A DNA stretch of 63,524 nt, filler included, from Globobulimina sp. (GCA_003354225.1; 52 parts of 52 records of this genome joined end to end with filler, not necessarily neighbours in it), one strand, 5' to 3'; positions 1,226 through 54,859 are shown, counted from the whole stretch's first letter. Notes: a model not told the origin generated them from the sequence alone. Numbers and translations are program-made.

Positions 1226-1920
1226 CTCGTTTTGATGTTGTCCTGCGGCATTCTCAACAAAACAGAACATGCCCCCGCAGGTGCTCCAGAAAAGCCATTT
1301 ATCAGCGGCGACTTTTTTTTCTCCTTATCACCATCAGTCACAATTTTTACAATAAAGCTCTGGATCGGAAAGCGAACCATTTGATTAGTTCCTTGCTTCA
1401 TAATTGTTGGTGCTACGCCTCGATATATCCCACCAAAACCTTCACTTCGTACTATTTTATAGACTGCGTTGACACTGTTTGAATATTTCTGTGTCCCTTT
1501 TCTTAAGTCATCAGTGACTCTTGTTTTTATTGTCTCGATTGGTGTGACGGCCAATATTGCCTCACTTGTTCCTGCCACAAAGCCACATAACATGTTGGCG
1601 GCTAAACCTATGTTGCCTTCACTGTCACGGAAGTGTTTACTGGCATTTGTATAGGCAGTCCAACGGGCGGCTTGTTTCCCACTCGAGCCGACAAGCAAAG
1701 GTAATAAGCCTCGATATAAGCCGAGTGGCCCGTGCTGGCGAACTACTTTTACTGCGCAATCCAATATTCCTTTATATTCTGGATTTGTGCGACTCTGAAG
1801 TTGTAATTGAGTTTTTATAAATTCTGTTGGATAACAAATAATTGCTTCTGTTGCTCCCGTTGCGGTGCCTTTTAAAAAAGACCTCCAAATACTGGCTTTG
1901 TCATCTGACACGAACGCCAT
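1226..1920 (-). CDS. Mitochondrial carrier, tricarboxylate/citrate carrier-like (SLC25A1/CTP1), 3' partial
   Basis: Three Px[DE]xxK signatures (PTEFIK, PIETIK, PQDNIK); GLYRG and GIYRG; KQAARW and KQGTNQMVRF typical of citrate carriers. Confidence 0.85.
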
Positions 1921-2818
1921 TCTACTGATTCTAGCACAAACTAAGGACAGTTTTTAGTAATAGCTAACGACTATGTCCCTGTACGTACAAGTTATTATAC
2001 TTTTATTTTTATTTTTATTTTTATTTATTTTTCCGATGTATGCTTCTTCAAAACTTTAATCATTCCAAAAACTGTGCAATATTTGCGGGACAGAAAACCA
2101 TTTTTCAATTTTGCAATTAAACACAGTTTGGCCCTCTGGTTTGCATTCCAATATTGTCTCACACAAAATAGCATCTTTACTACTCATCACACTCAAAATG
2201 GTGGCAAAATCATTATTTTTATATTCATCCAGTACCTCATGTAATAATTTGCTTTTATAATAAGTATGATGATAATCTCTATGAATACCCATTGTTTGCA
2301 CAATTTGAACACCAAACTCTTCATCAAAATTATTTTCATTTATTATATCTNNNNNNNNNNNNNNNNNNNNNNNNNNNNNNNNNNNNNNNNNNNNTTAATT
2401 AATTAANNNNNNNNNNNNNNNNNNNNNNNNNNNNNNNNNNNNNNNNNNNNACTGTTTATGACATTGTTTAAAATGACTGCGAAAAAAGTCCAAGTTTTAC
2501 GAATATTACAAAACAATATATAAGACATTGTTCAACAAAACACACTATACCCAATATTGTTTTGATATGCACAAAGCTTAGGATATTATATATTTGGTAC
2601 TCCATCCTTTTTTGGACCACAAGATAAAATATTCCGAAGCTAATTACCATGTATAATATGACTGTGAGTGGGATAACATGTACAAACTCTGTCAGCCATA
2701 ATCGCATCTGATGTTAACTAAAAAAAACATCCTCTTCAACTGAGTAAGTGAGTCAAGTGGTAATACGACTTTGTTTCATTTGCAACAAGCCGCAATCAAA
2801 GCTTGTTTTTGAACAAAA

Positions 2819-20630: not shown

Positions 20631-20847
20631 ATTACAAAATGGCCCTGTTCCGCCCTGAGTCCTCGCTACGTCCTCCTTATACGGTGAAGTCAGCCATGTG
20701 CCTTTAAGAAGNNNNNNNNNNNNNNNNNNNNNNNNNNNNNNNNNNNNNNNNNNNNTTAATTAATTAANNNNNNNNNNNNNNNNNNNNNNNNNNNNNNNNN
20801 NNNNNNNNNNNACGTTAATATAGTACTCTTGTCGACTGTCAACAAAA

Positions 20848-21935
20848 ATGTCATCACTATCTCTCGTAGATCCATTGCCTCAACAAGCTGTTACTTTATA
20901 TGAACTGAGACAGTCCAAATTCAATATCATTCAATCCACATCGATTGAAATTACTAAATTATGCCTCATCATTGATTATCTAAAAGATATGGATGACAGA
21001 AATGAATTATTAACAGATAAAAATCAACGTGAAAAATTATACGAAAATATTGTACAAGAATTAAAAGAAAATGACGCAACCGAACAAAAGAATGATTATA
21101 TTGAAGAAAAGAAGAAAAAGATGATAGAAATAAATAATATTATCAGTGTATACCGTCGAAAGAGCAGTTATAATGGAAATATTGAATGCGAAATCAGAGA
21201 AACAATTGATTCAAAATTATCATTTATTAACCATATAACGCAGCATATTTATAATTTGCGAGAAGAAATTAAATTTTTAACAAATAAAATTAAATCGAAA
21301 ACGTTTGAATGCACAATTTGTTTTGAAGTATTACATTCTGAGCATTTATATATTATTTCAAAGTGCGGTCATAAATTATGTCGTTTCTGTTTTCGTCGAC
21401 ATATATTTTCTTCGATTCAGCGCAAAAAACAAGAGCCAAAATGCCCATTTTCCGAATGTGAACAAATATTATCTCATTATGATGATTTACAAGTGATTTT
21501 ATCACCGACAGAATACCAAGATATTAATTATAAATTAAATATGACTGCGGTATCAAAGTTAAAGGGAATTAAATATTGTTTAACGCCCGATTGTGACAAT
21601 GCGATTGAATACGATACAAGTCAATGTTCGAAAAATGTTAAAGTAACAAAGTTTGAGTGCAAGAAATGTCACAATTGCTGGTGTTTGGACTGTAAAACAG
21701 AATGGCATGGTGGATATAGTACATGTAAAGCATGGAAAAGAAGCATTAAAAGAAAGAAATATGAAAATGTTGCAGATGTAAAGTATGCCAAATGGTATAA
21801 AAACAATAAGAAATTAGTCAAAGAATGTCCTGGCTGTCATGCTCATGTTGAAAAAAATGTAATGGTAAAGTTAAAGTTTGAATTTTCAAATGTTTTTTCA
21901 AAATGGTTCTCCATGCTTGTTGAAGAAAATTTTCA
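20848..21935 (+). CDS. RBR (RING-IBR-RING) E3 ubiquitin ligase, 3' partial
   Basis: RING1 CTICFE...CGHKLCRFC...KCP; IBR YCLTPDC...CKKC...WCLDCKTEWH; RING2 start KECPGCHAHVEKN. Confidence 0.9.
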
Positions 21936-35499: not shown

Positions 35500-36492
35500 G
35501 ACTTGCATCGGGGGCTTGATATCAAAACGGATGTCAACAGTTCATTATTTGCCATCACATCAGGCGAAGTCGAGGACATTCAGCCTTCCTCCACTGACGG
35601 AATATCAATTCAGTTGCAACATTTCCGCTCAGGTATTCGCGGGAATTGTTCCGCAGGATGTTACTTCTCCAGATATTTACATGCGAGCGCCACAACATTG
35701 CATATTGGAGATTGGGTGGAAACGGGCCGTTTGATTGGATACAGTGGAATGTCATCGAGTGGCAACGCACATTTACATTTTGAAATTCGCAGTGCAAACA
35801 CAGACGATGCAGAAAGTGACTGGCAACGAGAATGTGTGAATCCATTTAGAGTTTTGGCATACTGTCCTGATATGGAGCCACGTACAAATATCGAATTGGT
35901 CAAATGGAATAAAATCAGTGTTACATCCAACAGGAAAGATATAGTGAGAATAGAGCTTGAATTGAAGGATATGAATGGTGCTATGATAGCAACTGCAGTT
36001 GCAAATGAATATGGATATGATGTCAATCCTACTTTTTTAGATATTGAAGCAATGAATTTCCAATATACACATAAAGATTCATCAGTTGCGGAGTGGGAAT
36101 CGTTTGGTTTGAATGGAGTGCATCAATGCCCATATTACAGTGAACATGGATTGAGTTATGATGCGAATCTACATTTGGATGTGCAATCTGTCAACAATCA
36201 GAGTGTGGGACAGTTTAATGGTTTGATGATTTTCCCGTACGATGAAGAAGATTATTTTTGGGGAATGTCTGTAACATTTGTTGTAATTGGCGAATCTGTG
36301 CATAGTTTGGTGCAATGTACTGTTGTGAATGTGTATTCTGCTGAGTTTGGGACACTTGGCACACACATTGTGAATTCTACAGACTTTGGAAATTGTGTAG
36401 CGGATACTGGGACTGCACTGTTTGAAGGAAACTGGTCAAACAAAATATACTGTATCATGTTTCTTATTTGTACTTATCACTGTATGTGCTAA
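35500..36492 (+). CDS. Peptidase M23 family metalloendopeptidase with C-terminal extension and hydrophobic tail (5' partial)
   Basis: HRGLDI (HxxxD), RYLH, GDWVETGRLIGYSG, HLHFEIR (HxH), CVNPF; C-terminal IYCIMFLICTY. Confidence 0.85.
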   Translation, partial: DLHRGLDIKTDVNSSLFAITSGEVEDIQPSSTDGISIQLQHFRSGIRGNCSAGCYFSRYLHASATTLHIGDWVETGRLIGYSGMSSSGNAHLHFEIRSANTDDAESDWQRECVNPFRVLAYCPDMEPRTNIELVKWNKISVTSNRKDIVRIELELKDMNGAMIATAVANEYGYDVNPTFLDIEAMNFQYTHKDSSVAEWESFGLNGVHQCPYYSEHGLSYDANLHLDVQSVNNQSVGQFNGLMIFPYDEEDYFWGMSVTFVVIGESVHSLVQCTVVNVYSAEFGTLGTHIVNSTDFGNCVADTGTALFEGNWSNKIYCIMFLICTYHCMC

Positions 36493-36723: not shown

Positions 36724-37751
36724 GAGCAATAAAATCAATTCAAAATATATGCGATAAAGAAGATGATGGAAACAGTTTGTTGCACATTGCCTGCGTACAT
36801 AAACAACTACATTTAGTCGAAGCCTTTTTAAGTATTTCCAATTTATTTGATGTCAATATTCCAAACGATATCGGCAACACACCATTACACTTAATAATCG
36901 TTAAAGATTCATCATATATTCCAATTATTGAATGTTTAATAAAGCATTACAATGCATCACCATTTACGCGCAATAAAAATGGCGAAACACCGCAATTTTT
37001 ACTGTCGTGTTCTCAATTTGGACTGCAACGGATTCCCGAACTAAATATATTATTATCAATTCACACATTTCGACAAAAAAAAGAGAATGCAATGTTGAGT
37101 TTAAATAGCAACGAATCATTGCGAAGCTGTGTAAAATCTAAAATATGTAAAATGTCGCCTGAAAAATTATTAGTCTATAAACAAATTTATAGAACATTGG
37201 CAAATGGCTGCGTATGGTTAAGAAAAGAACATTTATTCAAAGTATTTGAACAAATGAATTTAAATTTGCTTGATCGAGAATTGAAACAGATATTGGACAC
37301 AATTGATACTAATAACGATGGACACGTTGATTTTGAGGATTTTTTAGCATTTCTATTGATGCCAATTAATGAGTGGAGCACAAATGTTTTAGCGAAAAAT
37401 AACAGAAGTAAACAAAAAAAGAAAGTCAACCAATTTAAAGATAGCATTTATTATAATCCTTTGATACAAACTGGAATAATATCTGTTGCCAATGACGTAA
37501 AAGAACCAATCAAAATTAATAAAGAACATTACATCAAATTACACGAAAAGTTTGGTGGATTATTTAGCTGTAAACCAGAAGAAATCGACTCTGTTTTAAA
37601 ACGAATAATAAAATGTGGCAATAAAGAGGATTATGTCGCTAATGATGAGGAAGAAGAGCTAAATTACTTAGATGACAACATATGGAACAAAATAATAAAC
37701 CATCAAATCAATGTAAAACATCAAATCAATGAGAAAAATGCCTCAAATTAA
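36724..37751 (+). CDS. Ankyrin-repeat plus EF-hand protein, partial
   Basis: GNSLLHIAC, GNTPLHL, NKNGETP; EF-hand DTNNDGHVDFEDF. Confidence 0.85.
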
Positions 37752-42839: not shown

Positions 42840-43608
42840 CGGTGAACGTGGCGTCGTGTTTAACCGTTTATGGGGCGTCAAAGATAACATTTATTCGGAA
42901 GGCACCCATTTCATACTGCCAATCTTAGAGTGGCCAATCATCTACGAAGTGCGTACGCGTCCTACCGAGCTCTCCTCTTATTCGGGCACTCGCGATTTAC
43001 AATATGTCAATATGGCATTGCGGGTGTTATACCGACCAGAAATCAGTGCGTTGCCCTCCATTTTGCGCAAATACGGCACCGATTACGACCGCAGAGTGTT
43101 GCCGAGCATCATCAATGAGACGTTGAAGGCCATCGTTGCTATGTATAATGCGGAGCAATTGACCACGCAAAGGGAGGAAGTGAGTCTCCGCATCAAGCGC
43201 GACTTAATGGAGAGGGCGGAGGAGTTCCACATCGATATCCAAGACTGTGCTATCACGCACTTAGAGTTCAGTAAGGAGTTCGCCAAAGCGGTGGAGGATA
43301 AACAGATCGCACAGCAAGATGCTGAACAAGCGAAATTTTTGGTGCAGTTGGCGTTGCAGGAAAAGCAAAGTAAGATCATCGCGGCGGAGGGTGAGGCTCA
43401 GGCGGCGAAGTTGATTGGTGACTCGATGCAGAAAAACCCGGTGTTTGCCGAGTTGCGGAGGATCGAAGCGGCCAGACATGTGGCTCAGGCATTGGCCAAT
43501 TCGCATAATAGGATTTTCTTGGATTCCAATAGTTTATTAATGAACATGTTGACTGATTTTGTCAATGATGACTCGGTTTCGACACATAAACAAACCGTTA
43601 GGCAATAA
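42840..43608 (+). CDS. PHB2: Prohibitin (PHB2-like), 5' partial
   Basis: FNRLWGVKD..YSEGTHF, DLQYVN..LRVL.RP, RVLPSIINETLK, KQIAQQDAE, AEGEAQAA, NRIFLDSNSLL. Confidence 0.88.
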
Positions 43609-46928: not shown

Positions 46929-47631
46929 TTAATCAACATAAAGCTGTTGGCCGGGAAATATTGTAGTAGTGAAATTTAAACGGTTTATCTGCAATAGACG
47001 ATTGAGAGGCATTTTATGATTTCTGGCTATTGTGAATGGACTGTCTCCCTGCTTTACCTCGTATGTCTTTAAAGAGCTTTGTAATGGAACTTTATTTTTT
47101 CTTCCGGGTAATTTCAGGACCTGACCCACATAGAGGTTCGTACTGGTCAGGCTATTTAAATACTTAATTTTTTTTGTTGTGGTACCGTATCGCTTTGCAA
47201 TAATCCAAAGCGAGTCACCCCTTCTTACAATGTGTTTTGCAGCATGATAATCTACGCTGAAGTTTTTTGTCTTTGGAATGTATGATCTTCCCTGTGGTAT
47301 TTTAAGAAGCTTGCCAGCAACTATGAAATTTCGTTTATTAATATTGTTTGCATGGGCAATTCGCCTCACGCTTGTGCGATATTTCTCGGCAATAGTTGAA
47401 AGCGTTTCTCCCCGTCTAACCCTGTGATATACAAAAGCTTTCCTGGGAGGCGGCGGTATGGGGATTCCATCTATTTTTGAAAGCAGCAATTCAGTATGAC
47501 CGGGAGGAACCTTAAGCGCATATTTACATTCGGGAAGCATTTTGTAACGTAGTTCAGGGTTCAGTTTTTTAAGCACACCTGCAGAAACACCGATACTGTT
47601 TCCAATATTTTTCAGGTAGACCTGCCTGGAT
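46929..47631 (-). CDS. mltD: Bacterial MltD-like lytic murein transglycosylase, C-terminal region with three LysM domains
   Basis: LKKLNPELRY..LP..Y.LKVP, then HRVRRGETLSTIA, HIVRRGDSLWIIA, YEVKQGDSPFTIA; intronless. Confidence 0.75.
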
Positions 47632-49035: not shown

Positions 49036-50424
49036 TAACGTCACCATGTTACATAACACTTCATGCTGCCATGCACTATGTAAGAATACAAAATAAACGG
49101 ATACAAACAAAATAAAATAAAATGGAATGAAAGAATATAAATATTATAAGGATAAAGGATGAAGGGTACAAAATCAATAACAAATCAAACTAAATATTAT
49201 TACAACCAGATAAAAAAGTAAAGGAGAAAAACTATGATGGTGAATAAATAAAATGGATGAAATGAATGAAAAAATTAAAATATTATCATACGAGCACCCA
49301 AAGCCTAAATCAATATAAATATGAATTCTATGCTCCCCATCCATGGAATTTGTGATGATGTTCATGTCAACAAATATTTATAACCAGTAAAGATATAACT
49401 TTATAGATCAAAATAAGGTTTAAAGACAGTGCATGTCACCAGATCCAAAAATAAAATAGAATGAGACAATAAATGGATGAGTATATAAAAAGTAGAATAA
49501 AAACAAATGAATACTATGAAACAAAATGGAATAAATTACAGATTAAATACTATGGGGAGCAGTAGAGAAAGAATAAAATGGCAAAAATTGTATTATTAAA
49601 GTCAATGTCGAAAAATAAAGCAAATACTAAATAATAATAATAACCAATCAAATGATATTTAAATGAAAGAATGAATGAATGTGAAATTATTATAATATAT
49701 TATAACTATCAACATATATCTGAAATAGAATAGAATAAAATAAAATAAATTGATTGTAAATTAATGGATTGGATTGAATTGAATTTCTTTTTTTCAATTA
49801 TCGTCGATGAGAGCAAAATGGTGCTAACTAAATTAAACTACAAAAACAAACACCATTAAATTTTCACACAAAAATACATAATGAAGTGTAACAAACAAAT
49901 TAATTTATATATAACACACAACAAAAACAAACAAGACACCACACACAGCTCATATACACACAGTCGCATTAATTTAATTTGAATATTTTAAAAAATACAC
50001 AACAATATGCATTAATTTGAATAAATTCCGAGCAAAAAAACACAAAAGTTTGCATGCAATAATTATTTTTTCTATTTNNNNNNNNNNNNNNNNNNNNNNN
50101 NNNNNNNNNNNNNNNNNNNNNTTAATTAATTAANNNNNNNNNNNNNNNNNNNNNNNNNNNNNNNNNNNNNNNNNNNNTATACTATCAAGTTATTGAGTTA
50201 ATACATTGGTGGATCACTAACACACTGGAGGGAGCAGGGAGTGGAACAATGCATCGATATATGTTGCTTGTAATGAGACTATTTTGACAACCATTTACTT
50301 AATGATCTGAATGTAATTGCATTAGTTGACTTTACTGACTTGCATCGTCTGTTTTTCTTTTTTGTCGCTGACATCCTCTGACACAGCAAGTGGCTAAAAT
50401 TGTTAATTCGAAAAATAATATACA

Positions 50425-51300
50425 ATGAGCGAGCTATTATCATTTTTAGCACTATCAGCATTATATTTTTTATCTAAATCCCAAACGTCGACAGAAATCG
50501 TTGGTGCATGGCTTGATGACTTTGCATATGATAGTAGTCAAGCAAACGGATGGTACACTTTTGTTGGACAATTCAGCAACACACAGCAAGAATTGCCAAA
50601 TTATTTGGTGAATGGAGATGGAACATCAGCTACAAAATATCATGGCCCATTCAAGAGACAGTTAATATATGGCACACCGAAAAGATGGAGACATAATTGG
50701 ATAGTACGGACGTTCAGATGCCAGCAATATGCGCAAGTTTTTATTTCATACCATTATGGATTTTGCAACTGTGCTGGTCAGAGCAGCACATTGATCCGCT
50801 TTGGACAAAACCAAGCAGCAGAAGTCATGGATAATTTCAACGATGCAAATGCATTACAATTTGATGATGAAATATTTGAGAATAATCTGACCGGAGTATC
50901 AGTTGAATGCTCCACAGATGAAAAATGGAAATATAAATCCACTATTATGGATCTAGGATATTTGGCAGCGAATGAAGATTTTACAATAGGTATAAAGCAG
51001 ACCATCGACGACAACACACGCATCAATACAATGTATTCTATTCTGTACAACATACAAATAGAATGTGTCCGTCCAACTACACATCCTACAAATGATCCTA
51101 CACTCCACCCTACCATTAACCCAACAAACTTTCCCACGAAATCGCCCACTAAATCTCCCTCGAAATCACCCACTAAATCTCCCACCAAATCTCCTACTAA
51201 ATCTCCCACCAAATCTCCTTCTAAATATCCAACTAAATCTCCCACACGCGATACAACAATACATACAACGTATAATCAAACTAAATATCATACAAAATAT
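50425..51300 (+). CDS. Secreted protein with PT/SPTK mucin-like stalk (3' partial)
   Basis: Signal peptide MSELLSFLALSALYFLSKS, a globular domain, then (K-S-P-T)n encoded by 12-bp repeats at about 51135-51245. Confidence 0.75.
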
Positions 51301-51400: not shown

Positions 51401-51985
51401 TCAATTCAAAAAAGTTTTGTTGTCGGTGCCATGACAAAACCGATCACTAACACAAAGAAAAATTTATTAGGAATCCGATTTAAACCAGGGATGGCCCATC
51501 TTTTTTTGAAGCATCCCATGAATGAATTCACAGATCAGATTATTGATTTTTATAATTTTTTCGGAAATGAAGCCACTTATATATCCGAGCAGCTTGCCCC
51601 TCTACTTACGATTGAAAGTCAAATCAGTTTGCTAAATAAGATAATGAAAAAACAAATATCAAAATTTCTACCAATGAATAAGCAAATGATGCTTGCTCTG
51701 GGATATATTTTTGAAACCAAAGGTAAATTCAACGTAATCAAATTAAGTAATCACATTGGTTGGAGTCGACAACATTTCACACGGACTTGCCTGCGATATA
51801 CAGGACTCACTCCAAACTATTTATCCCAGGTGCTTCGTATCAATAATCTAATCAGTCAATTCAACAATAATTTTCCAGACTCTTTGTGTAGTTTGTCTTT
51901 ATCAAATGGATTTTATGACCAAAGTCACATGATCAATGTGTTTAAAAAAATTACCGGTATTCCACCTGCAAAATATTTTGATTAA
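51401..51985 (+). CDS. Bacterial AraC-family transcriptional regulator (DUF6597 + HTH), 5' partial
   Basis: GIRFKPG; WSRQHFTR...YTGLTP; GFYDQSHMINVFKKITGIPP. Confidence 0.88.
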   Translation, partial: SIQKSFVVGAMTKPITNTKKNLLGIRFKPGMAHLFLKHPMNEFTDQIIDFYNFFGNEATYISEQLAPLLTIESQISLLNKIMKKQISKFLPMNKQMMLALGYIFETKGKFNVIKLSNHIGWSRQHFTRTCLRYTGLTPNYLSQVLRINNLISQFNNNFPDSLCSLSLSNGFYDQSHMINVFKKITGIPPAKYFD

Positions 51986-52229
51986 AGTGATTGCTAAAAT
52001 AACTTTCTGATTAACCATAAAACGCAATGCAATCACCAAAAACACAATAGTTTATAAATTTAAAGACTTAAACCAAATAATATGCGATCTCTCAACCCTG
52101 CCTAACGGAACTGATTTGATAACATTTTATATAATTTTTAAAATGTTCCATTTTTCCAATACCTGCTGTCAATTATGCATTATACTTAAAAGTATTGTTG
52201 AAAATTACATTAAAAAAATAGGAGAAAAA

Positions 52230-52490
52230 ATGATTGCATATTGTGGTTTAGACTGCTCAGCCTGCGAGGCGTTTATAGCAACCAAAGAAAATGATGATAC
52301 TAAAAGAGAGACGGTTGCCCAAAAATGGACGGTGACCTATAATACTGAAATGACAAAGGATCAAATTAATTGTCATGGCTGCAAATCAACTGGTCAAAGA
52401 TTCTTTTTTTCCGAGAACAGGTGCGAAATCCGCAAATGCAATATTGAAAAATCTAATGCCAATTGTGCGGAGTGCAGCGAATACCGTTAG
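52230..52490 (+). CDS. Bacterial DUF3795 Cys-rich protein, truncated
   Basis: SD-like AGGAG before the ATG at 52230; MIAYCGLDCSACEAFIAT...INCHGCKS...CEIRKC...NCAEC. Confidence 0.85.
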   Translation: MIAYCGLDCSACEAFIATKENDDTKRETVAQKWTVTYNTEMTKDQINCHGCKSTGQRFFFSENRCEIRKCNIEKSNANCAECSEYR

Positions 52491-52623
52491 CCGCAATGCC
52501 TGTGGGCATTCACGGTATTCGCGNNNNNNNNNNNNNNNNNNNNNNNNNNNNNNNNNNNNNNNNNNNNTTAATTAATTAANNNNNNNNNNNNNNNNNNNNN
52601 NNNNNNNNNNNNNNNNNNNNNNN

Positions 52624-53380
52624 TTGGTTGTTCATGTAATAAAAAGAATAAATATGAAATATCCTCACCATTATCAGCCATTAATTCCATATTCATACTG
52701 TCATTCTGATAGAAATCAATATTCATACAACCATTCATTCCATTCATTGTATTCTGCATCAAATATCTATCAATTTTTGTCTTTGCGTTAATTAATTGAA
52801 TAGGTGCAATATCGATGATTTTATAGTTATATTCATCATACACATTACAAGCACCATTGGAATCTAATAAATTGGATATTAAATCAGTTGAAAAATTGCC
52901 ATAAACACACGCTATTTGCGCTATATTTAAACTCAATGTACCATTGTTTTGATAAGTATTTATTTCTTGAATAGCTTCGTTTTTTAATCTATTGAAATTG
53001 CCCCATAATATGGCATCGACCAACCACTGTCTTTCCCAGAATTTAACAGCATTTGGGTTGATATATGCCCACCAATACGTTGATGATAAATAACATGGTA
53101 TTAAGGCATCGTCCAGCGGCGTTTTAATAAAAGTTTGAATTTTATATTGCATTTCCATCGGTGACTTGCAATTGTTATCAAAGCTATTTATTGAATCTAT
53201 GGATGGATTGCAATTGAGTGTTGATTGAGATCTGGATTGGGATTTTGAACCGAGCTGTCTTAAACGATATTGATTTTGAAATAATGGAATACGCGGTGTT
53301 GAGTATAATGGAATGTATCGATATCGACTTAATGCACGGATATATAATGGTTTTGTTCCATTTGTCATAGATTTGAACAT
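52624..53380 (-). CDS. rquA: Rhodoquinone biosynthesis protein RquA with N-terminal mitochondrial presequence (3' partial)
   Basis: IPCYLSSTYWWAYINP.AV..WERQWLVDAILWGNFNRL, QIACVYG, IIDIAPIQL.NAK.K, FFLLHEQP are diagnostic RquA motifs. The N-terminal ~55 aa are Arg/Ser-rich and lack acidic residues. Confidence 0.92.
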
Positions 53381-53536
53381 AGTTTAATATGGTTTCCGAT
53401 AGACTGGATATTAGTATGTGATACAATTATATAATTATTTTCATACAGCATGGAAAGAAATGAAGTTGTTACTAAATTTTTTGCATTTTTGCATCTTTGC
53501 ATACAGATAACAATAATAGCCATTTAGAATTAAGTG

Positions 53537-53746
53537 ATGCAAAAATCAAAAATCCCAAAGGAACTGCAATTGTTGACATCAATTTTCCAAAATATTTTGA
53601 ACAATCCGCAGAACAAAAAGTATAGAAACCTGAATTTTAAGAGAATTTGCAGACAGATCAATGAATCATATCTCAAATGGATTTATAATGCCGGGTTTGA
53701 AATATCAAGCGATGAGAAACGATTAGTGTTAGATTCATCAAATATA
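53537..53746 (+). CDS. PUB-domain protein (partial)
   Basis: LLTSIFQNILNNPQNKKYRNLN...IYNAGF is the PUB signature (NI..NP...KYR.....GF). Confidence 0.8.
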
Positions 53747-53846: not shown

Positions 53847-54777
53847 TTTCGCTGTTGTTCTGAGTGGAGTTTGACGTTTCGTATGGACAATCTCCGGCAT
53901 AATGACCTTGAAGCCCGCAGCTGTGACAGAAGTAGATTTTTCGCGCTGGAGCCGAGGAATTTTGAGGGGCATTTCTTTGGAATTGCATTTGATTTTGGCC
54001 AAATTGGCCAAACTGTCCAGTTTGGTGTTGGGTTGACTGATTGAGGTGTAATTGAGACAAGAATTGACCGATAATCGCTGCTTGGTCGAGAGGCTGATTG
54101 GCGGGAGTAGGACCCGCCGTGAACCGAAAGGGCTGTTGAGTTGAACGAGAGAAACGATCTCCAGACTGATCGTTTGGACGTCCATATGGTCGGTAACGTG
54201 GTTTTTGCTTTACCCGGTCCAAAGCACGATCCAAAGCTTGACGATCTTGCGAGCTTGAAAGAACAGCATTTGGACGACGCATCTCCTCAACAACAGTCCA
54301 TCCATATTGATCGGCCAAAGAAACATCTTGTTGTCGTCTTTTTAAAATTTCATGACTCTCCATAATGTTGTCCATCAATACTGCATCATAAGTCGGTTCA
54401 GTAGATAAACGTTCTATAGCGTGAGATAATGGAGCCATTGCAGATGTAACAACTTCATACTGCTTTTGTAAACCGATATTTTGGAAATTTGGTGTTGTTG
54501 GGGGAACAGAAGTAGCTTGAGAGGCACGTACGCCTGAACGAACGGCTTGGTCGATTAAATCCTTCAATTCATGACGAGAGAAAGTAACAGTTTCGGCTGA
54601 TTCATTGTTTGGAACCGAAAAAATACTTCCGTCATCTAATGTCGGACTGGGTGACGAAATGACTGGTTCATTTATGACCACTGCAACAGGCTCTTTAGGT
54701 AGATTTTGTCTTCGATGAACTGATCGAGTTTGTAGTGGTTTAGGGACAGTTTTCTCCTTCTTATTTTTTGGAGGCAT
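53847..54777 (-). mobile_element. Gag-like ORF1 with CCHC knuckle of a DIRS/Ngaro-type tyrosine-recombinase retrotransposon
   Basis: RRQQDVSLADQYGWTVVEEM...LSSSQDRQAL motif; CHSCGLQGHYAGDC; intronless and GC-richer than host genes. Confidence 0.75.
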
Positions 54778-54859
54778 TATTAACGTAACAACAATATTAG
54801 AAAATTATGCAGTTTAGGAATAGAAACGAATGATAGATGATCAAACGAGATTAAAGCAA

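What the first reader, a model, noticed from the sequence alone, without database searches (positions are those of the whole stretch)
52624..53746. Host-encoded, mitochondrion-targeted RquA: rhodoquinone-based anaerobic respiration
Seen: diagnostic RquA motifs (YWWAY..P, ILWGNF.RL, QIACVYG, DIAPIQ, FFLLHE.P), a presequence-like basic N-terminus, Asn-rich host-style insertions, and a divergently oriented eukaryote-type PUB-domain gene on the same contig. Established: RquA converts ubiquinone to rhodoquinone, enabling fumarate reduction by complex II under hypoxia, and it has spread patchily among protists by lateral transfer, including some rhizarians, so novelty would be at lineage level. Inference: this organism has facultatively anaerobic mitochondria; how RQ interacts with foraminiferal nitrate respiration is an open question.
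Basis: partly seen in the sequence, partly recalled or inferred. Interest (0 to 1): 0.88.

Follow-up and report, generated by a model that had tools for sequence, protein, structure and literature searches.

The report
Foraminiferal rhodoquinone gene RquA, cut short
This short contig carries the first three quarters of a foraminifer's own gene for RquA, the enzyme that turns ubiquinone into the low-oxygen electron carrier rhodoquinone; the gene is real, but it is already described in foraminifera, so it is a routine addition.

Summary
The window is 52 unrelated ~1.12-kb contigs joined by N spacers, and the finding is one whole contig. On its minus strand an ORF starts at ATG 53380 and runs off the contig end after 252 codons (…FFLLHEQP).

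- **Family:** the only convincing family hit is NCBIfam RquA (E 3.2e-33, profile 1-130 of 218). There is no UbiE/UbiG hit.
- **Phylogeny:** it sits in a fully supported clade with RquA of the foraminifera Bolivina, Nonionella and Ammonia, next to Reticulomyxa and far from E. coli UbiE/UbiG.
- **N-terminus:** a 93-residue extension, basic and free of acidic residues for 61 residues, has a start conserved in the closest relative. This fits a mitochondrial presequence.
- **Neighbour:** a PUB-domain gene fragment lies head-to-head 153 bp away.

Not shown: the C-terminal ~85-95 residues lie off the contig. Targeting rests on composition only. The rquA-PUB join is not independently bridged. No rhodoquinone or expression data exist.

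RquA is already published for Reticulomyxa, Nonionella, Bolivina and a basal foraminifer, including its interplay with denitrification. It is a new member of a known kind, of low interest.

The parts
52625..53380 (-). rquA coding sequence, codons 1-252, one continuous exon. It is cut at its 3' end by the contig end; base 52624 is the first base, A, of the next codon, which fits the Lys that follows HEQP in relatives.
   Evidence: Translation. A TAA stop lies two codons upstream of the ATG. NCBIfam RquA E 3.2e-33. A single colinear tblastn segment matches full-length relatives.
53102..53380 (-). N-terminal extension, residues 1-93, a putative mitochondrial presequence plus linker. It includes the block KSQSRSQSTLN, conserved among foraminiferal homologues.
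   Evidence: The extension is 93 aa against 19-35 aa in three bacterial RquA, and has no D/E before residue 62. The start and the block align with P0272, P0123, P0268, P0004 and P0269. pLDDT is under 50 for residues 12-60 and 62-72.
52625..53101 (-). RquA catalytic core, residues 94-252: the RquA-specific N-terminal helices, the altered motif I (QIACVYG), D190 at the end of strand 2, D227, and FFLLHEQP.
   Evidence: Alignments A1 and A2. The AF2 model has pLDDT mostly above 90 here. The nearest solved fold is yeast Coq5, 4obw.
53381..53533 (.). 153-bp AT-rich (GC 0.25) intergenic region between the two divergent genes. It holds short TTTGCAT-like repeats and single-base length differences between runs.
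   Evidence: Sequence, composition, indels at 53427 and about 53467 in runs X1/X2.
53534..53746 (+). 5' part of a PUB-domain gene (71 codons; GTG 53534 / ATG 53537 directly after an in-frame TAA), cut by the contig end.
   Evidence: Pfam PUB E 4.3e-6, profile 6-72 of 82. The three best Atlas clusters are eukaryotic PUB families, scores 0.87-0.88. A contig of run X6 continues 581 letters beyond 53746.

Best explanation
The contig is a piece of the nuclear genome of a rotaliid-type foraminifer. It holds the first 252 codons of its rquA gene. Established for the family: RquA is a class I methyltransferase-fold enzyme that does not methylate. With Mn2+ it transfers the alpha-amino group of S-adenosylmethionine onto ubiquinone, replacing a methoxy group and giving rhodoquinone. 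Rhodoquinol's lower potential lets complex II run as a fumarate reductase when oxygen is lacking. Inferred here: the 93-residue basic N-terminal extension directs the protein into the mitochondrion, where ubiquinone is, and is at least partly removed. Also inferred: the mature enzyme works like the bacterial and Pygsuia enzymes. Shown here: family identity, eukaryotic (foraminiferal) affinity, an intact reading frame and key residues in the part present, and purifying selection against near relatives. Not shown: the last third of the protein, its localisation, its expression, and rhodoquinone itself.
For: (1) Family. The best NCBIfam hit is the RquA equivalog, E 3.2e-33. The only other hit at E<=1 is a 0.015 chance-level one, and no UbiE, MenG or UbiG model appears. 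Pfam gives no methyltransferase hit at E<=1. All 8 relatives scanned score 210-306 bits on the RquA model, above its 175 cutoff.
(2) Signature residues. The RquA-only block IPxYLxxTYWWAY..P.AV.FWERQWLV.AILWGN is present. Motif I reads QIACVYG where E. coli UbiE has DLAGGTG. W104, A105, Y106, L125, G127, L132, Y160, D190, Q195, K202, L247, H249, E250 and P252 are invariant in 75 of 75 aligned sequences. D190 and D227 lie where the SAM-binding D118 and D143 of R. rubrum RquA are expected; the double mutant D118A/D143A abolishes RQ synthesis (PMC9814641, passages). My mapping rests on the 25-residue spacing seen in bacterial P0052 and is not an alignment to R. rubrum.
(3) Phylogeny. In 67 rows rooted on E. 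coli UbiE and UbiG (end branches 5.7), the window sits in a 6-row clade (SH-aLRT 99) inside a 13-row eukaryote-type clade (95). In the careful 28-row tree it pairs with Bolivina argentea P155118 (95/84), inside an 8-row foraminiferal clade (100/100). That clade groups with Reticulomyxa and P0138 (87/80), inside a 15-row clade with the rhizarian Apiculatamorpha (99/98). Species names come from EukProt and MMETSP labels.
(4) Host. A prohibitin on another contig of the window is 87-91% identical to cluster representatives whose named members are Bulimina, Ammonia, Bolivina, Nonionella and Elphidium.
(5) The N-terminal extension and its Met1 are conserved in the transcript-derived closest relatives P0123 and P0272 (63-64% identity from residue 2). 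It has no acidic residue in the first 61 positions. The first ~40 residues of bacterial RquA are dispensable for activity (PMC9814641). All full-length eukaryotic RquA had predicted targeting signals, and Pygsuia RquA localises to the organelle (PMC5953543, passages).
(6) Selection. Contigs of two further studies (X6, X8) are 95-99% alike over 52624-53258/53249. 8 of 14 and 7 of 12 listed substitutions are synonymous, and the two insertions are in frame, 9 and 6 nt.
(7) Fold. The AF2 model has pLDDT mostly above 90 for residues 81-250. The best solved match is SAM-bound yeast Coq5 (4obw_B, E 6.8e-4), the only match at E<=0.001.
Against: The gene is incomplete: profile positions 131-218 of the RquA model (VDYHxP, LEPFAxDLW, GGLYQK) lie off the contig. 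The fragment's 115 bits are below the curated 175-bit cutoff. No other contig of the window holds the rest (tblastn, all other hits E>=1.3). No intron is seen in the 756 nt, so the intron argument that Stairs et al. used for Reticulomyxa is not available here. No targeting predictor could be run, and the maximal helical hydrophobic moment of the window's N-terminus (0.53) is at the low end of the eight eukaryotic sequences compared (0.53-0.75). Contigs of the two runs guessed to be RNA (X6, X8; two studies) end at 53258 and 53249, inside the extension (codons 41-44), while DNA contigs run on. The tool calls this a weak hint of a transcript end; if real, translation would start at Met75 and there would be no presequence. 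Codon composition does not tie the contig to the host: rquA GC3 is 0.27, like the RING/IBR and ankyrin contigs (0.24-0.26), but the prohibitin contig is 0.61 and bacteria-like contigs are 0.32-0.36. The assembly does contain bacteria-like contigs. The fold match has low TM-scores (0.34-0.37).
Confidence: 0.82

Rival explanations
1. The gene belongs to another eukaryote in the sample (a second foraminifer, prey or carry-over) and not to the organism the assembly is named for.
For: The assembly is a mix: there are bacteria-like contigs with AraC+DUF3795, M23 and LysM, and codon composition is very uneven among eukaryote-type contigs (GC3 0.24 to 0.61). Near-identical DNA is held by runs under two different coded organism labels, and 95-99% variants by runs under labels B and C. 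EukProt sets of two different foraminiferal genera share >=90% identical RquA in two clusters, which shows that carry-over occurs in this kind of data.
Against: The closest relatives are foraminiferal. The one housekeeping gene tested in the window is also rotaliid-like, so the simplest reading is one foraminifer. Mean word depth of the rquA contig is 98.5 and 38.5 in the two DNA runs, but depth from contigs cannot rank organisms.
Confidence: 0.1
2. It is a bacterial rquA from an associated bacterium or symbiont, and the contig joins it chimerically to a eukaryotic PUB fragment.
For: Bacteria-like contigs exist in the window. No intron is seen. RquA is common in Proteobacteria: the 80 metagenome loci kept are 35-43% identical, and I did not annotate them but took them as mostly bacterial.
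Against: The window protein is 47-64% identical to foraminiferal transcript-derived proteins and only 40-43% identical to named bacterial RquA. It lies in the 100/100 foraminiferal clade. It carries a 93-aa extension, conserved from Met1 with a transcriptome protein, where bacteria have 19-35 aa. It has foraminifer-specific insertions at three sites. GC is 0.31.
Confidence: 0.02
3. The gene is a decaying or re-purposed RquA copy that no longer makes rhodoquinone.
For: Only 252 codons are visible. RquA evolves fast in this clade: 64% identity to the nearest relative against about 90% for prohibitin. Several relatives have N where the window has D227.
Against: The frame is open for all 252 codons. 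Every column that is invariant in the 75-sequence alignment is kept. There is a synonymous excess and in-frame indels against near relatives. DNA contigs of other runs continue 218 and 348 nt beyond the contig end, so the truncation is an assembly matter.
Confidence: 0.05

Closest known systems
RquA of foraminifera: Bolivina argentea / Nonionella stella transcripts (EukProt EP01084, EP01083; bioRxiv 10.1101/2022.07.20.500910), Ammonia sp. (MMETSP1384) and Reticulomyxa filosa (the protein cited as ETO28810.1 in that preprint; the NCBI 'methyltransferase [Reticulomyxa filosa]' hit P0008 is probably that record, not verified)
   Same: Same clade (100/100 for the rotaliid-type set, 87/80 with Reticulomyxa). 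Same long basic N-terminal extension with the K-S-Q-S-R-x-Q-S-T block, the same three insertion sites, and the same core motifs.
   Different: Only 64% identical to the nearest (B. argentea P155118), 53% to P0268/P0004/P0007 and 38% to Reticulomyxa over the alignment. The C-terminal third is not on the contig. No identical protein turned up in the 5.8-billion-protein search.
RquA of Rhodospirillum rubrum and other Proteobacteria (NCBIfam NF038261; mechanism in PMC9814641)
   Same: Same family model, the same altered motif I, a conserved acidic residue at the end of strand 2 (D190), and FFLLHEQP. The expected chemistry is the same: SAM as amino donor, Mn2+, ubiquinone to rhodoquinone.
   Different: 40-43% identity to the named bacterial members aligned. 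The eukaryotic N-terminal extension is about 60-75 residues longer, and there are three lineage-specific insertions. Activity is not tested.
UbiE / Coq5 and UbiG / Coq3 quinone methyltransferases
   Same: Class I SAM-dependent methyltransferase fold. Yeast Coq5 (4obw) is the best solved structural match.
   Different: 21% identity to E. coli UbiE. No UbiE, MenG or UbiG model hit at E<=1. Motif I glycines are replaced (GGTG becomes CVYG). There is an extra RquA-specific N-terminal helical block. The outgroup branches are very long in the tree.
PUB (PNGase/UBA- or UBX-containing) domain proteins of eukaryotes
   Same: The neighbour's first 71 residues match Pfam PUB positions 6-72 of 82 (E 4.3e-6). 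The nearest Atlas clusters are eukaryotic PUB families.
   Different: The score is below Pfam's gathering threshold. The rest of the protein is off the contig. A word-based search for longer homologues found none.

Membership tests
RquA (rhodoquinone biosynthesis protein, NCBIfam NF038261) | Best (reciprocal-type) profile hit is the RquA model and not UbiE/MenG/UbiG | tested here: met
   RquA E 3.2e-33. The only other hit at E<=1 is a 0.015 chance-level one; no Pfam methyltransferase family at E<=1.
RquA (rhodoquinone biosynthesis protein, NCBIfam NF038261) | Whole-protein score above the curated equivalog cutoff (175 bits) | tested here: inconclusive
   The fragment scores 115.3 bits on profile positions 1-130 of 218, and the rest is off the contig. 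All 8 relatives scanned score 210-306 bits.
RquA (rhodoquinone biosynthesis protein, NCBIfam NF038261) | Substituted SAM-binding motif I (Q-[IV]-A-C-V-Y-G in place of D-x-G-x-G-x-G), as described by Lonjers 2012 and Stairs 2018 | tested here: met
   QIACVYG at 155-161 against DLAGGTG in E. coli UbiE. Q155, A157, C158, V159 and G161 are at least 90% conserved and Y160 is invariant in 75 sequences. The literature statement was seen as passages of PMC5953543.
RquA (rhodoquinone biosynthesis protein, NCBIfam NF038261) | RquA-specific N-terminal block (IPxYL..TYWWAY..P.AV..ER.WLV..ILWGN) absent from UbiE/UbiG | tested here: met
   Residues 94-128. UbiE has a gap or no similarity there. W104, A105, Y106, L125 and G127 are invariant in 75 of 75.
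RquA (rhodoquinone biosynthesis protein, NCBIfam NF038261) | SAM-contacting aspartates equivalent to R. rubrum D118 and D143 (required for RQ synthesis, PMC9814641) | tested here: met
   D190 (invariant) and D227 are present. The equivalence is inferred from position in the fold and the 25-residue spacing in bacterial P0052. The R. rubrum sequence itself was not in hand.
RquA (rhodoquinone biosynthesis protein, NCBIfam NF038261) | Branches inside the RquA clade, apart from UbiE/UbiG | tested here: met
RquA (rhodoquinone biosynthesis protein, NCBIfam NF038261) | Conserved C-terminal half (VDYHxP, LEPFAxDLW, GGLYQK) | not testable with these tools
   The contig ends after codon 252. No genome is held for this window, and no other contig of the window has it. 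Contigs of public runs extend 218-455 nt further, but their letters are not given.
RquA (rhodoquinone biosynthesis protein, NCBIfam NF038261) | Converts ubiquinone to rhodoquinone with SAM and Mn2+ | not testable with these tools
   This needs a biochemical assay or heterologous expression.
Eukaryotic, mitochondrion-targeted RquA (Stairs et al. 2018) | N-terminal mitochondrial targeting signal | tested here: inconclusive
   Composition fits: a 93-aa extension, 7 K+R and 0 D+E in the first 40 residues, the first acidic residue at 62, and a disordered model. No TargetP, MitoFates or MitoProt was available. There is a weak contrary hint from contig ends at 53249-53258.
Eukaryotic, mitochondrion-targeted RquA (Stairs et al. 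2018) | Spliceosomal introns or eukaryotic gene neighbours showing a nuclear location | tested here: inconclusive
   No intron in the 756 nt present. A PUB-domain neighbour lies on the same contig, but the join was not independently bridged.
PUB domain (Pfam PF09409) | Profile match above the gathering threshold | tested here: inconclusive
   27 bits, E 4.3e-6, under the 34.3 cutoff, on a 71-residue fragment. Atlas leads agree.

The most novel reading that the evidence does not exclude
RquA entered a common ancestor of Foraminifera (or of a wider rhizarian group including Apiculatamorpha) once, already or soon equipped with its long presequence. It has been inherited vertically from monothalamids such as Reticulomyxa to rotaliids. 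On this reading, rhodoquinone-dependent fumarate respiration is an ancestral, group-wide trait that coexists with denitrification, and not a patchy recent acquisition. This contig would be one more genomic (not transcriptomic) anchor for that.
Probability: 0.45. Interest if true: 0.35.

Novelty: new member of a known kind. Interest (0 to 1): 0.2.

Why it matters
It adds a genomic copy, from a further rotaliid-type foraminifer, of a gene that marks the capacity to make rhodoquinone and so to respire fumarate without oxygen. That supports the published picture that benthic foraminifera combine several anaerobic options: denitrification, fumarate reduction and fermentation. It opens no new question. 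The gene family, its mechanism, its presence in foraminifera and its transcriptional interplay with denitrification are all in print. Its practical value is as an annotation, and as a reminder that this assembly is so fragmented (about 1.1-kb contigs, mixed with bacterial pieces) that gene-level claims need completion by reads.

Tried and rejected
- **Own-genome search** for the missing 3' part: no genome is held. tblastn of five full-length relatives against the whole window found only this contig.
DNA contigs of X1 and X2 cover 52624-53466, and their 10 loose letters equal the window with one T fewer, so they reach about 53477. A contig of X6 starts at 53490. Nothing among the 4 runs laid bridges 53478-53489.
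- **Expression:** no RNA holder is listed. X6-X8 are only guessed to be RNA, so no statement on expression is made.
- **Metagenome scans.** The single-protein scan found no relative. The profile scan found 157 relatives among 211 pattern matches, and the 80 kept are all 35-43% identical; I did not annotate them. None is a close foraminiferal locus, so there is no independent synteny and no full-length orthologue.
- **PUB fragment:** the search for longer homologues gave 12 candidates and none at E<=0.01.
- **PDB by sequence:** no significant match. All 13 rows have E>=0.16, and they are chance hits.
- **Codon/GC composition** as a host marker: not discriminating.
- **Two RquA paralogues in foraminifera.** Both types occur under both Bolivina and Nonionella labels. 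I rejected this as the main reading because >=90% identity between genera for so fast-evolving a gene is better explained by carry-over between data sets.
- **Earlier findings of this scan:** none for this genome or sequence, and the word search returned only bacterial RquA cases.
- **First tree script** gave no answer. The tree had been saved and the same script was rerun.

Full report
**What the window is.** The 63,524-base window is not one locus. It is 52 pieces of 1122-1125 bases, sorted by length and separated by 44 N, the word TTAATTAATTAA and 44 N. The finding's coordinates, 52624-53746, are exactly one such 1123-base contig. Neighbouring pieces are unrelated. No whole genome is held for the window.

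**The observation.** On the minus strand an ORF begins at ATG 53380, two codons after an in-frame TAA. It stays open for 252 codons until the contig ends at 52624.
- Full-length relatives continue after HEQP with K-[DE]-V-R-L-K-T-I and about 85-95 more residues. The gene is therefore truncated by the assembly and not by a stop.
- The last, unpaired base of the contig is an A, as expected for the Lys codon that follows in relatives.
- On the plus strand, 153 bp away and head-to-head, an ORF starts at GTG 53534 / ATG 53537 directly after a TAA and runs off the other contig end after 71 codons.
- That ORF matches Pfam PUB positions 6-72 of 82, at E 4.3e-6 and 27 bits, under the 34.3 cutoff. Its three best Atlas clusters are eukaryotic PUB families at scores 0.87-0.88, which are leads only.

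**Family.**
- Against NCBIfam the fragment hits the RquA equivalog NF038261 at E 3.2e-33 (115.3 bits, profile 1-130 of 218). Nothing else is credible, and no UbiE, MenG or UbiG model appears at E<=1.
- Pfam gives no methyltransferase family at E<=1.
- The score is under the curated 175 bits because a third of the model is off the contig. All 8 relatives scanned reach 210-306 bits.
- In an 11-sequence alignment with E. coli UbiE, the window shares the RquA-only N-terminal block. It has motif I QIACVYG where UbiE has DLAGGTG, and FFLLHEQP where UbiE has SFGLRNVT.
- In 75 aligned RquA-type sequences, 14 columns covered by the window's fragment are invariant and the window keeps all of them, including D190.
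- D190 and D227 sit where the SAM-contacting D118 and D143 of R. rubrum RquA are expected. The D118A/D143A double mutant makes no rhodoquinone (PMC9814641, passages).
- I inferred that equivalence from the fold position and from the 25-residue spacing in a bacterial member. I did not have the R. rubrum sequence.
- An AlphaFold2 model built on the 75-sequence alignment has mean pLDDT 76.5. Confidence is mostly above 90 from residue 81 onward and below 50 for residues 12-60 and 62-72.
- The best solved match is SAM-bound yeast Coq5 (4obw_B, E 6.8e-4, TM 0.34-0.37). It is the only match at E<=0.001.
- By sequence no solved structure matches; all 13 rows have E>=0.16.

**Whose gene it is.**
- The word-indexed search gave 3064 proteins at E<=0.001 among 3173 candidates. 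The top five are 47-55% identical eukaryote-style proteins of 262-339 aa, followed by the Reticulomyxa filosa 'methyltransferase' at 45%.
- The exhaustive search of 1.84 billion representatives gave 424 proteins at E<=0.001 and 4 at E<=1e-30. One is a 130-aa fragment that is 63% identical from residue 2.
- Source labels identify these as Bolivina argentea and Nonionella stella (EukProt), Ammonia sp. (MMETSP1384) and the rhizarian Apiculatamorpha spiralis.
- **First tree.** It has 67 rows:
  - the window;
  - 11 named or top hits;
  - P0010 and P0013;
  - 51 of the 145 new representatives, namely those of at least 225 aa (shorter fragments were dropped);
  - E. coli UbiE and UbiG as outgroup.

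  It puts the window in a 6-row clade (SH-aLRT 99) inside a 13-row clade (95). The outgroup sits on branches of 5.7 changes per column.
- **Second tree.** This careful 28-row tree pairs the window with B. argentea P155118 (95/84), inside an 8-row foraminiferal clade (100/100). Next come Reticulomyxa and P0138 (87/80, not starred). All of this lies inside a 15-row eukaryote-type clade (99/98) that is separate from 13 other rows, among them the named bacterial RquA.
- A prohibitin fragment on another contig (42841-43605) is 87-91% identical to cluster representatives whose named members are Bulimina marginata, Ammonia, Bolivina, Nonionella and Elphidium. The assembly therefore contains a rotaliid-type foraminifer.
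- Other contigs carry eukaryote-type domains: mitochondrial carrier, RING/IBR, and ankyrin plus EF-hand. Some are bacteria-like: AraC plus DUF3795, peptidase M23, LysM. Each contig therefore has to be assigned on its own merits.
- Codon composition does not help. GC3 is 0.27 for rquA, 0.24-0.37 for most contigs and 0.61 for prohibitin.

**The N-terminal extension.**
- The conserved core starts at residue 94. Three bacterial RquA have 19-35 residues before it.
- The extension has 7 K+R and no D/E in its first 40 residues, and its first acidic residue is at position 62.
- It aligns from Met1 with the transcript-derived P0123 and P0272.
- It shares the block K-S-Q-S-R-x-Q-S-T with five other foraminiferal sequences.
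- That an R-x-x-S pattern can mark a processing-peptidase site is my recollection and not a tool result.
- Bacterial RquA does not need its first 40 residues (PMC9814641).
- Stairs et al. report predicted targeting signals on all full-length eukaryotic RquA and organellar localisation in Pygsuia (PMC5953543, passages).
- I could not run a targeting predictor, so targeting remains an inference.

**Public reads.** The stretch is held by runs of four studies. I laid four runs as Logan contigs.
- Two DNA runs match at 99% or more from 52624 to about 53477. They continue 218 and 348 letters beyond the contig's rquA end, so the missing 3' part exists in public data, but its letters are not shown.
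- Contigs of two runs guessed to be RNA are 95-99% alike over 52624-53258/53249 and continue 455 and 383 letters beyond.
- Against these, 8 of 14 and 7 of 12 listed substitutions are synonymous. The two insertions are in frame, 9 and 6 nt in the extension. This is the pattern of a gene under purifying selection.
- Those two contigs end 9 nt apart inside the extension while DNA contigs go on. The tool rates this a weak hint of a transcript end.
- It conflicts with the transcriptome proteins of relatives, which include the whole extension. I give it little weight but record it.
- No contig bridges 53478-53489, so the rquA-PUB join is not independently confirmed. This is a hole, not a contradiction.
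- Just upstream of the PUB start, one related contig has 60 extra letters and another runs on for 111 unlike letters.

**Comparison with what is known.**
- RquA was found in Reticulomyxa filosa with introns. A 'rhizarian amoebae group' sits in Group B of the RquA tree (PMC5953543, passages).
- RQUA transcripts of N. stella and B. argentea were found with the Reticulomyxa protein as query. RQUA and complex II rise and denitrification genes fall under anoxia with nitrate (bioRxiv 10.1101/2022.07.20.500910, passages).
- A basal foraminifer expresses 'the rhodoquinone-biosynthesis methyltransferase' together with a QFR-type complex II (PMC13561418, passages).
- An earlier metatranscriptome study discussed rhodoquinone only through COQ-2 (PMC7490399, passages).
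- A 2026 preprint on another rhizarian mentions RquA only as absent from that organism (10.64898/2026.09.23.753574, passages).
- My searches 'RquA + Reticulomyxa', 'rhodoquinone + foraminifera' and 'RquA + foraminifer' returned 2, 10 and 4 papers.
- The kind of gene, its lineage and even the question about nitrate respiration are therefore in print.
- What is new is only this orthologue, which is 64% identical to its nearest recorded relative and was not found as an identical protein in the searches made.

**Verdict.** This is a genuine, eukaryote-type RquA gene fragment of a foraminifer, most likely mitochondrion-targeted and most likely functional, truncated by a very fragmented assembly. 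It is a new member of a known kind, of low interest.

Noticed in passing
window 1-63524: The window is 52 unrelated contigs of 1122-1125 bp, sorted by length and joined by N44 + TTAATTAATTAA + N44 spacers. ORFs that seem to end in runs of X are cut by contig ends.
   Followed up: yes
window 51401-52523: A bacteria-like contig carries an AraC-family regulator (HTH_18 / HTH_AraC / DUF6597) followed by a DUF3795 protein. The assembly therefore includes DNA of associated bacteria.
   Followed up: partly
window 35500-36489 and 46932-47630: A peptidase M23 fragment and a protein with three LysM domains. These are possibly further bacterial contigs; they were not assigned.
   Followed up: no
window 42841-43605: A prohibitin fragment is 87-91% identical to rotaliid foraminifera (Bulimina, Ammonia, Bolivina, Nonionella, Elphidium). 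Its GC3 is 0.61, far above the 0.24-0.37 of the other contigs measured. This is either codon bias of a highly expressed gene or a second organism.
   Followed up: partly
window 53848-54804 (-): A 319-codon open frame on the next contig (GC 0.44) has a C-x2-C-x4-H-x4-C zinc-knuckle-like motif near its C-terminus and Q-rich stretches. It has no Pfam hit at E<=0.001. It may be a gag-like retroelement protein.
   Followed up: no
proteins P0003/P0268 and P0123/P0272 (relatives, not in the window): The EukProt sets of Bolivina argentea and Nonionella stella each contain both RquA types. The two genera share >=90% identical sequences in both clusters. That points to carry-over between the two data sets, or less likely to two paralogues.
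   Followed up: partly
window 52624 and protein P0272: The transcript-derived B. argentea protein P0272 ends at exactly the same residue (…FFLLHEQP) as the window's contig. This may be an assembly-graph break at a motif shared between co-occurring sequences, or an intron at that spot. It is not resolved.
   Followed up: no
window 53531-53533: Immediately upstream of the PUB start codon, a related contig (run X6) has 60 extra letters and another (X8) continues with 111 unlike letters. This is an insertion or a different 5' leader in close relatives.
   Followed up: no
window 1228-1953 (-), 20824-21933 (+), 36726-37748 (+), 50419-51300 (+): Eukaryote-type gene fragments on other contigs: a mitochondrial carrier, a RING-IBR E3 ligase, an ankyrin plus EF-hand/EH protein, and a secreted-looking protein with PT repeats.
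   Followed up: no
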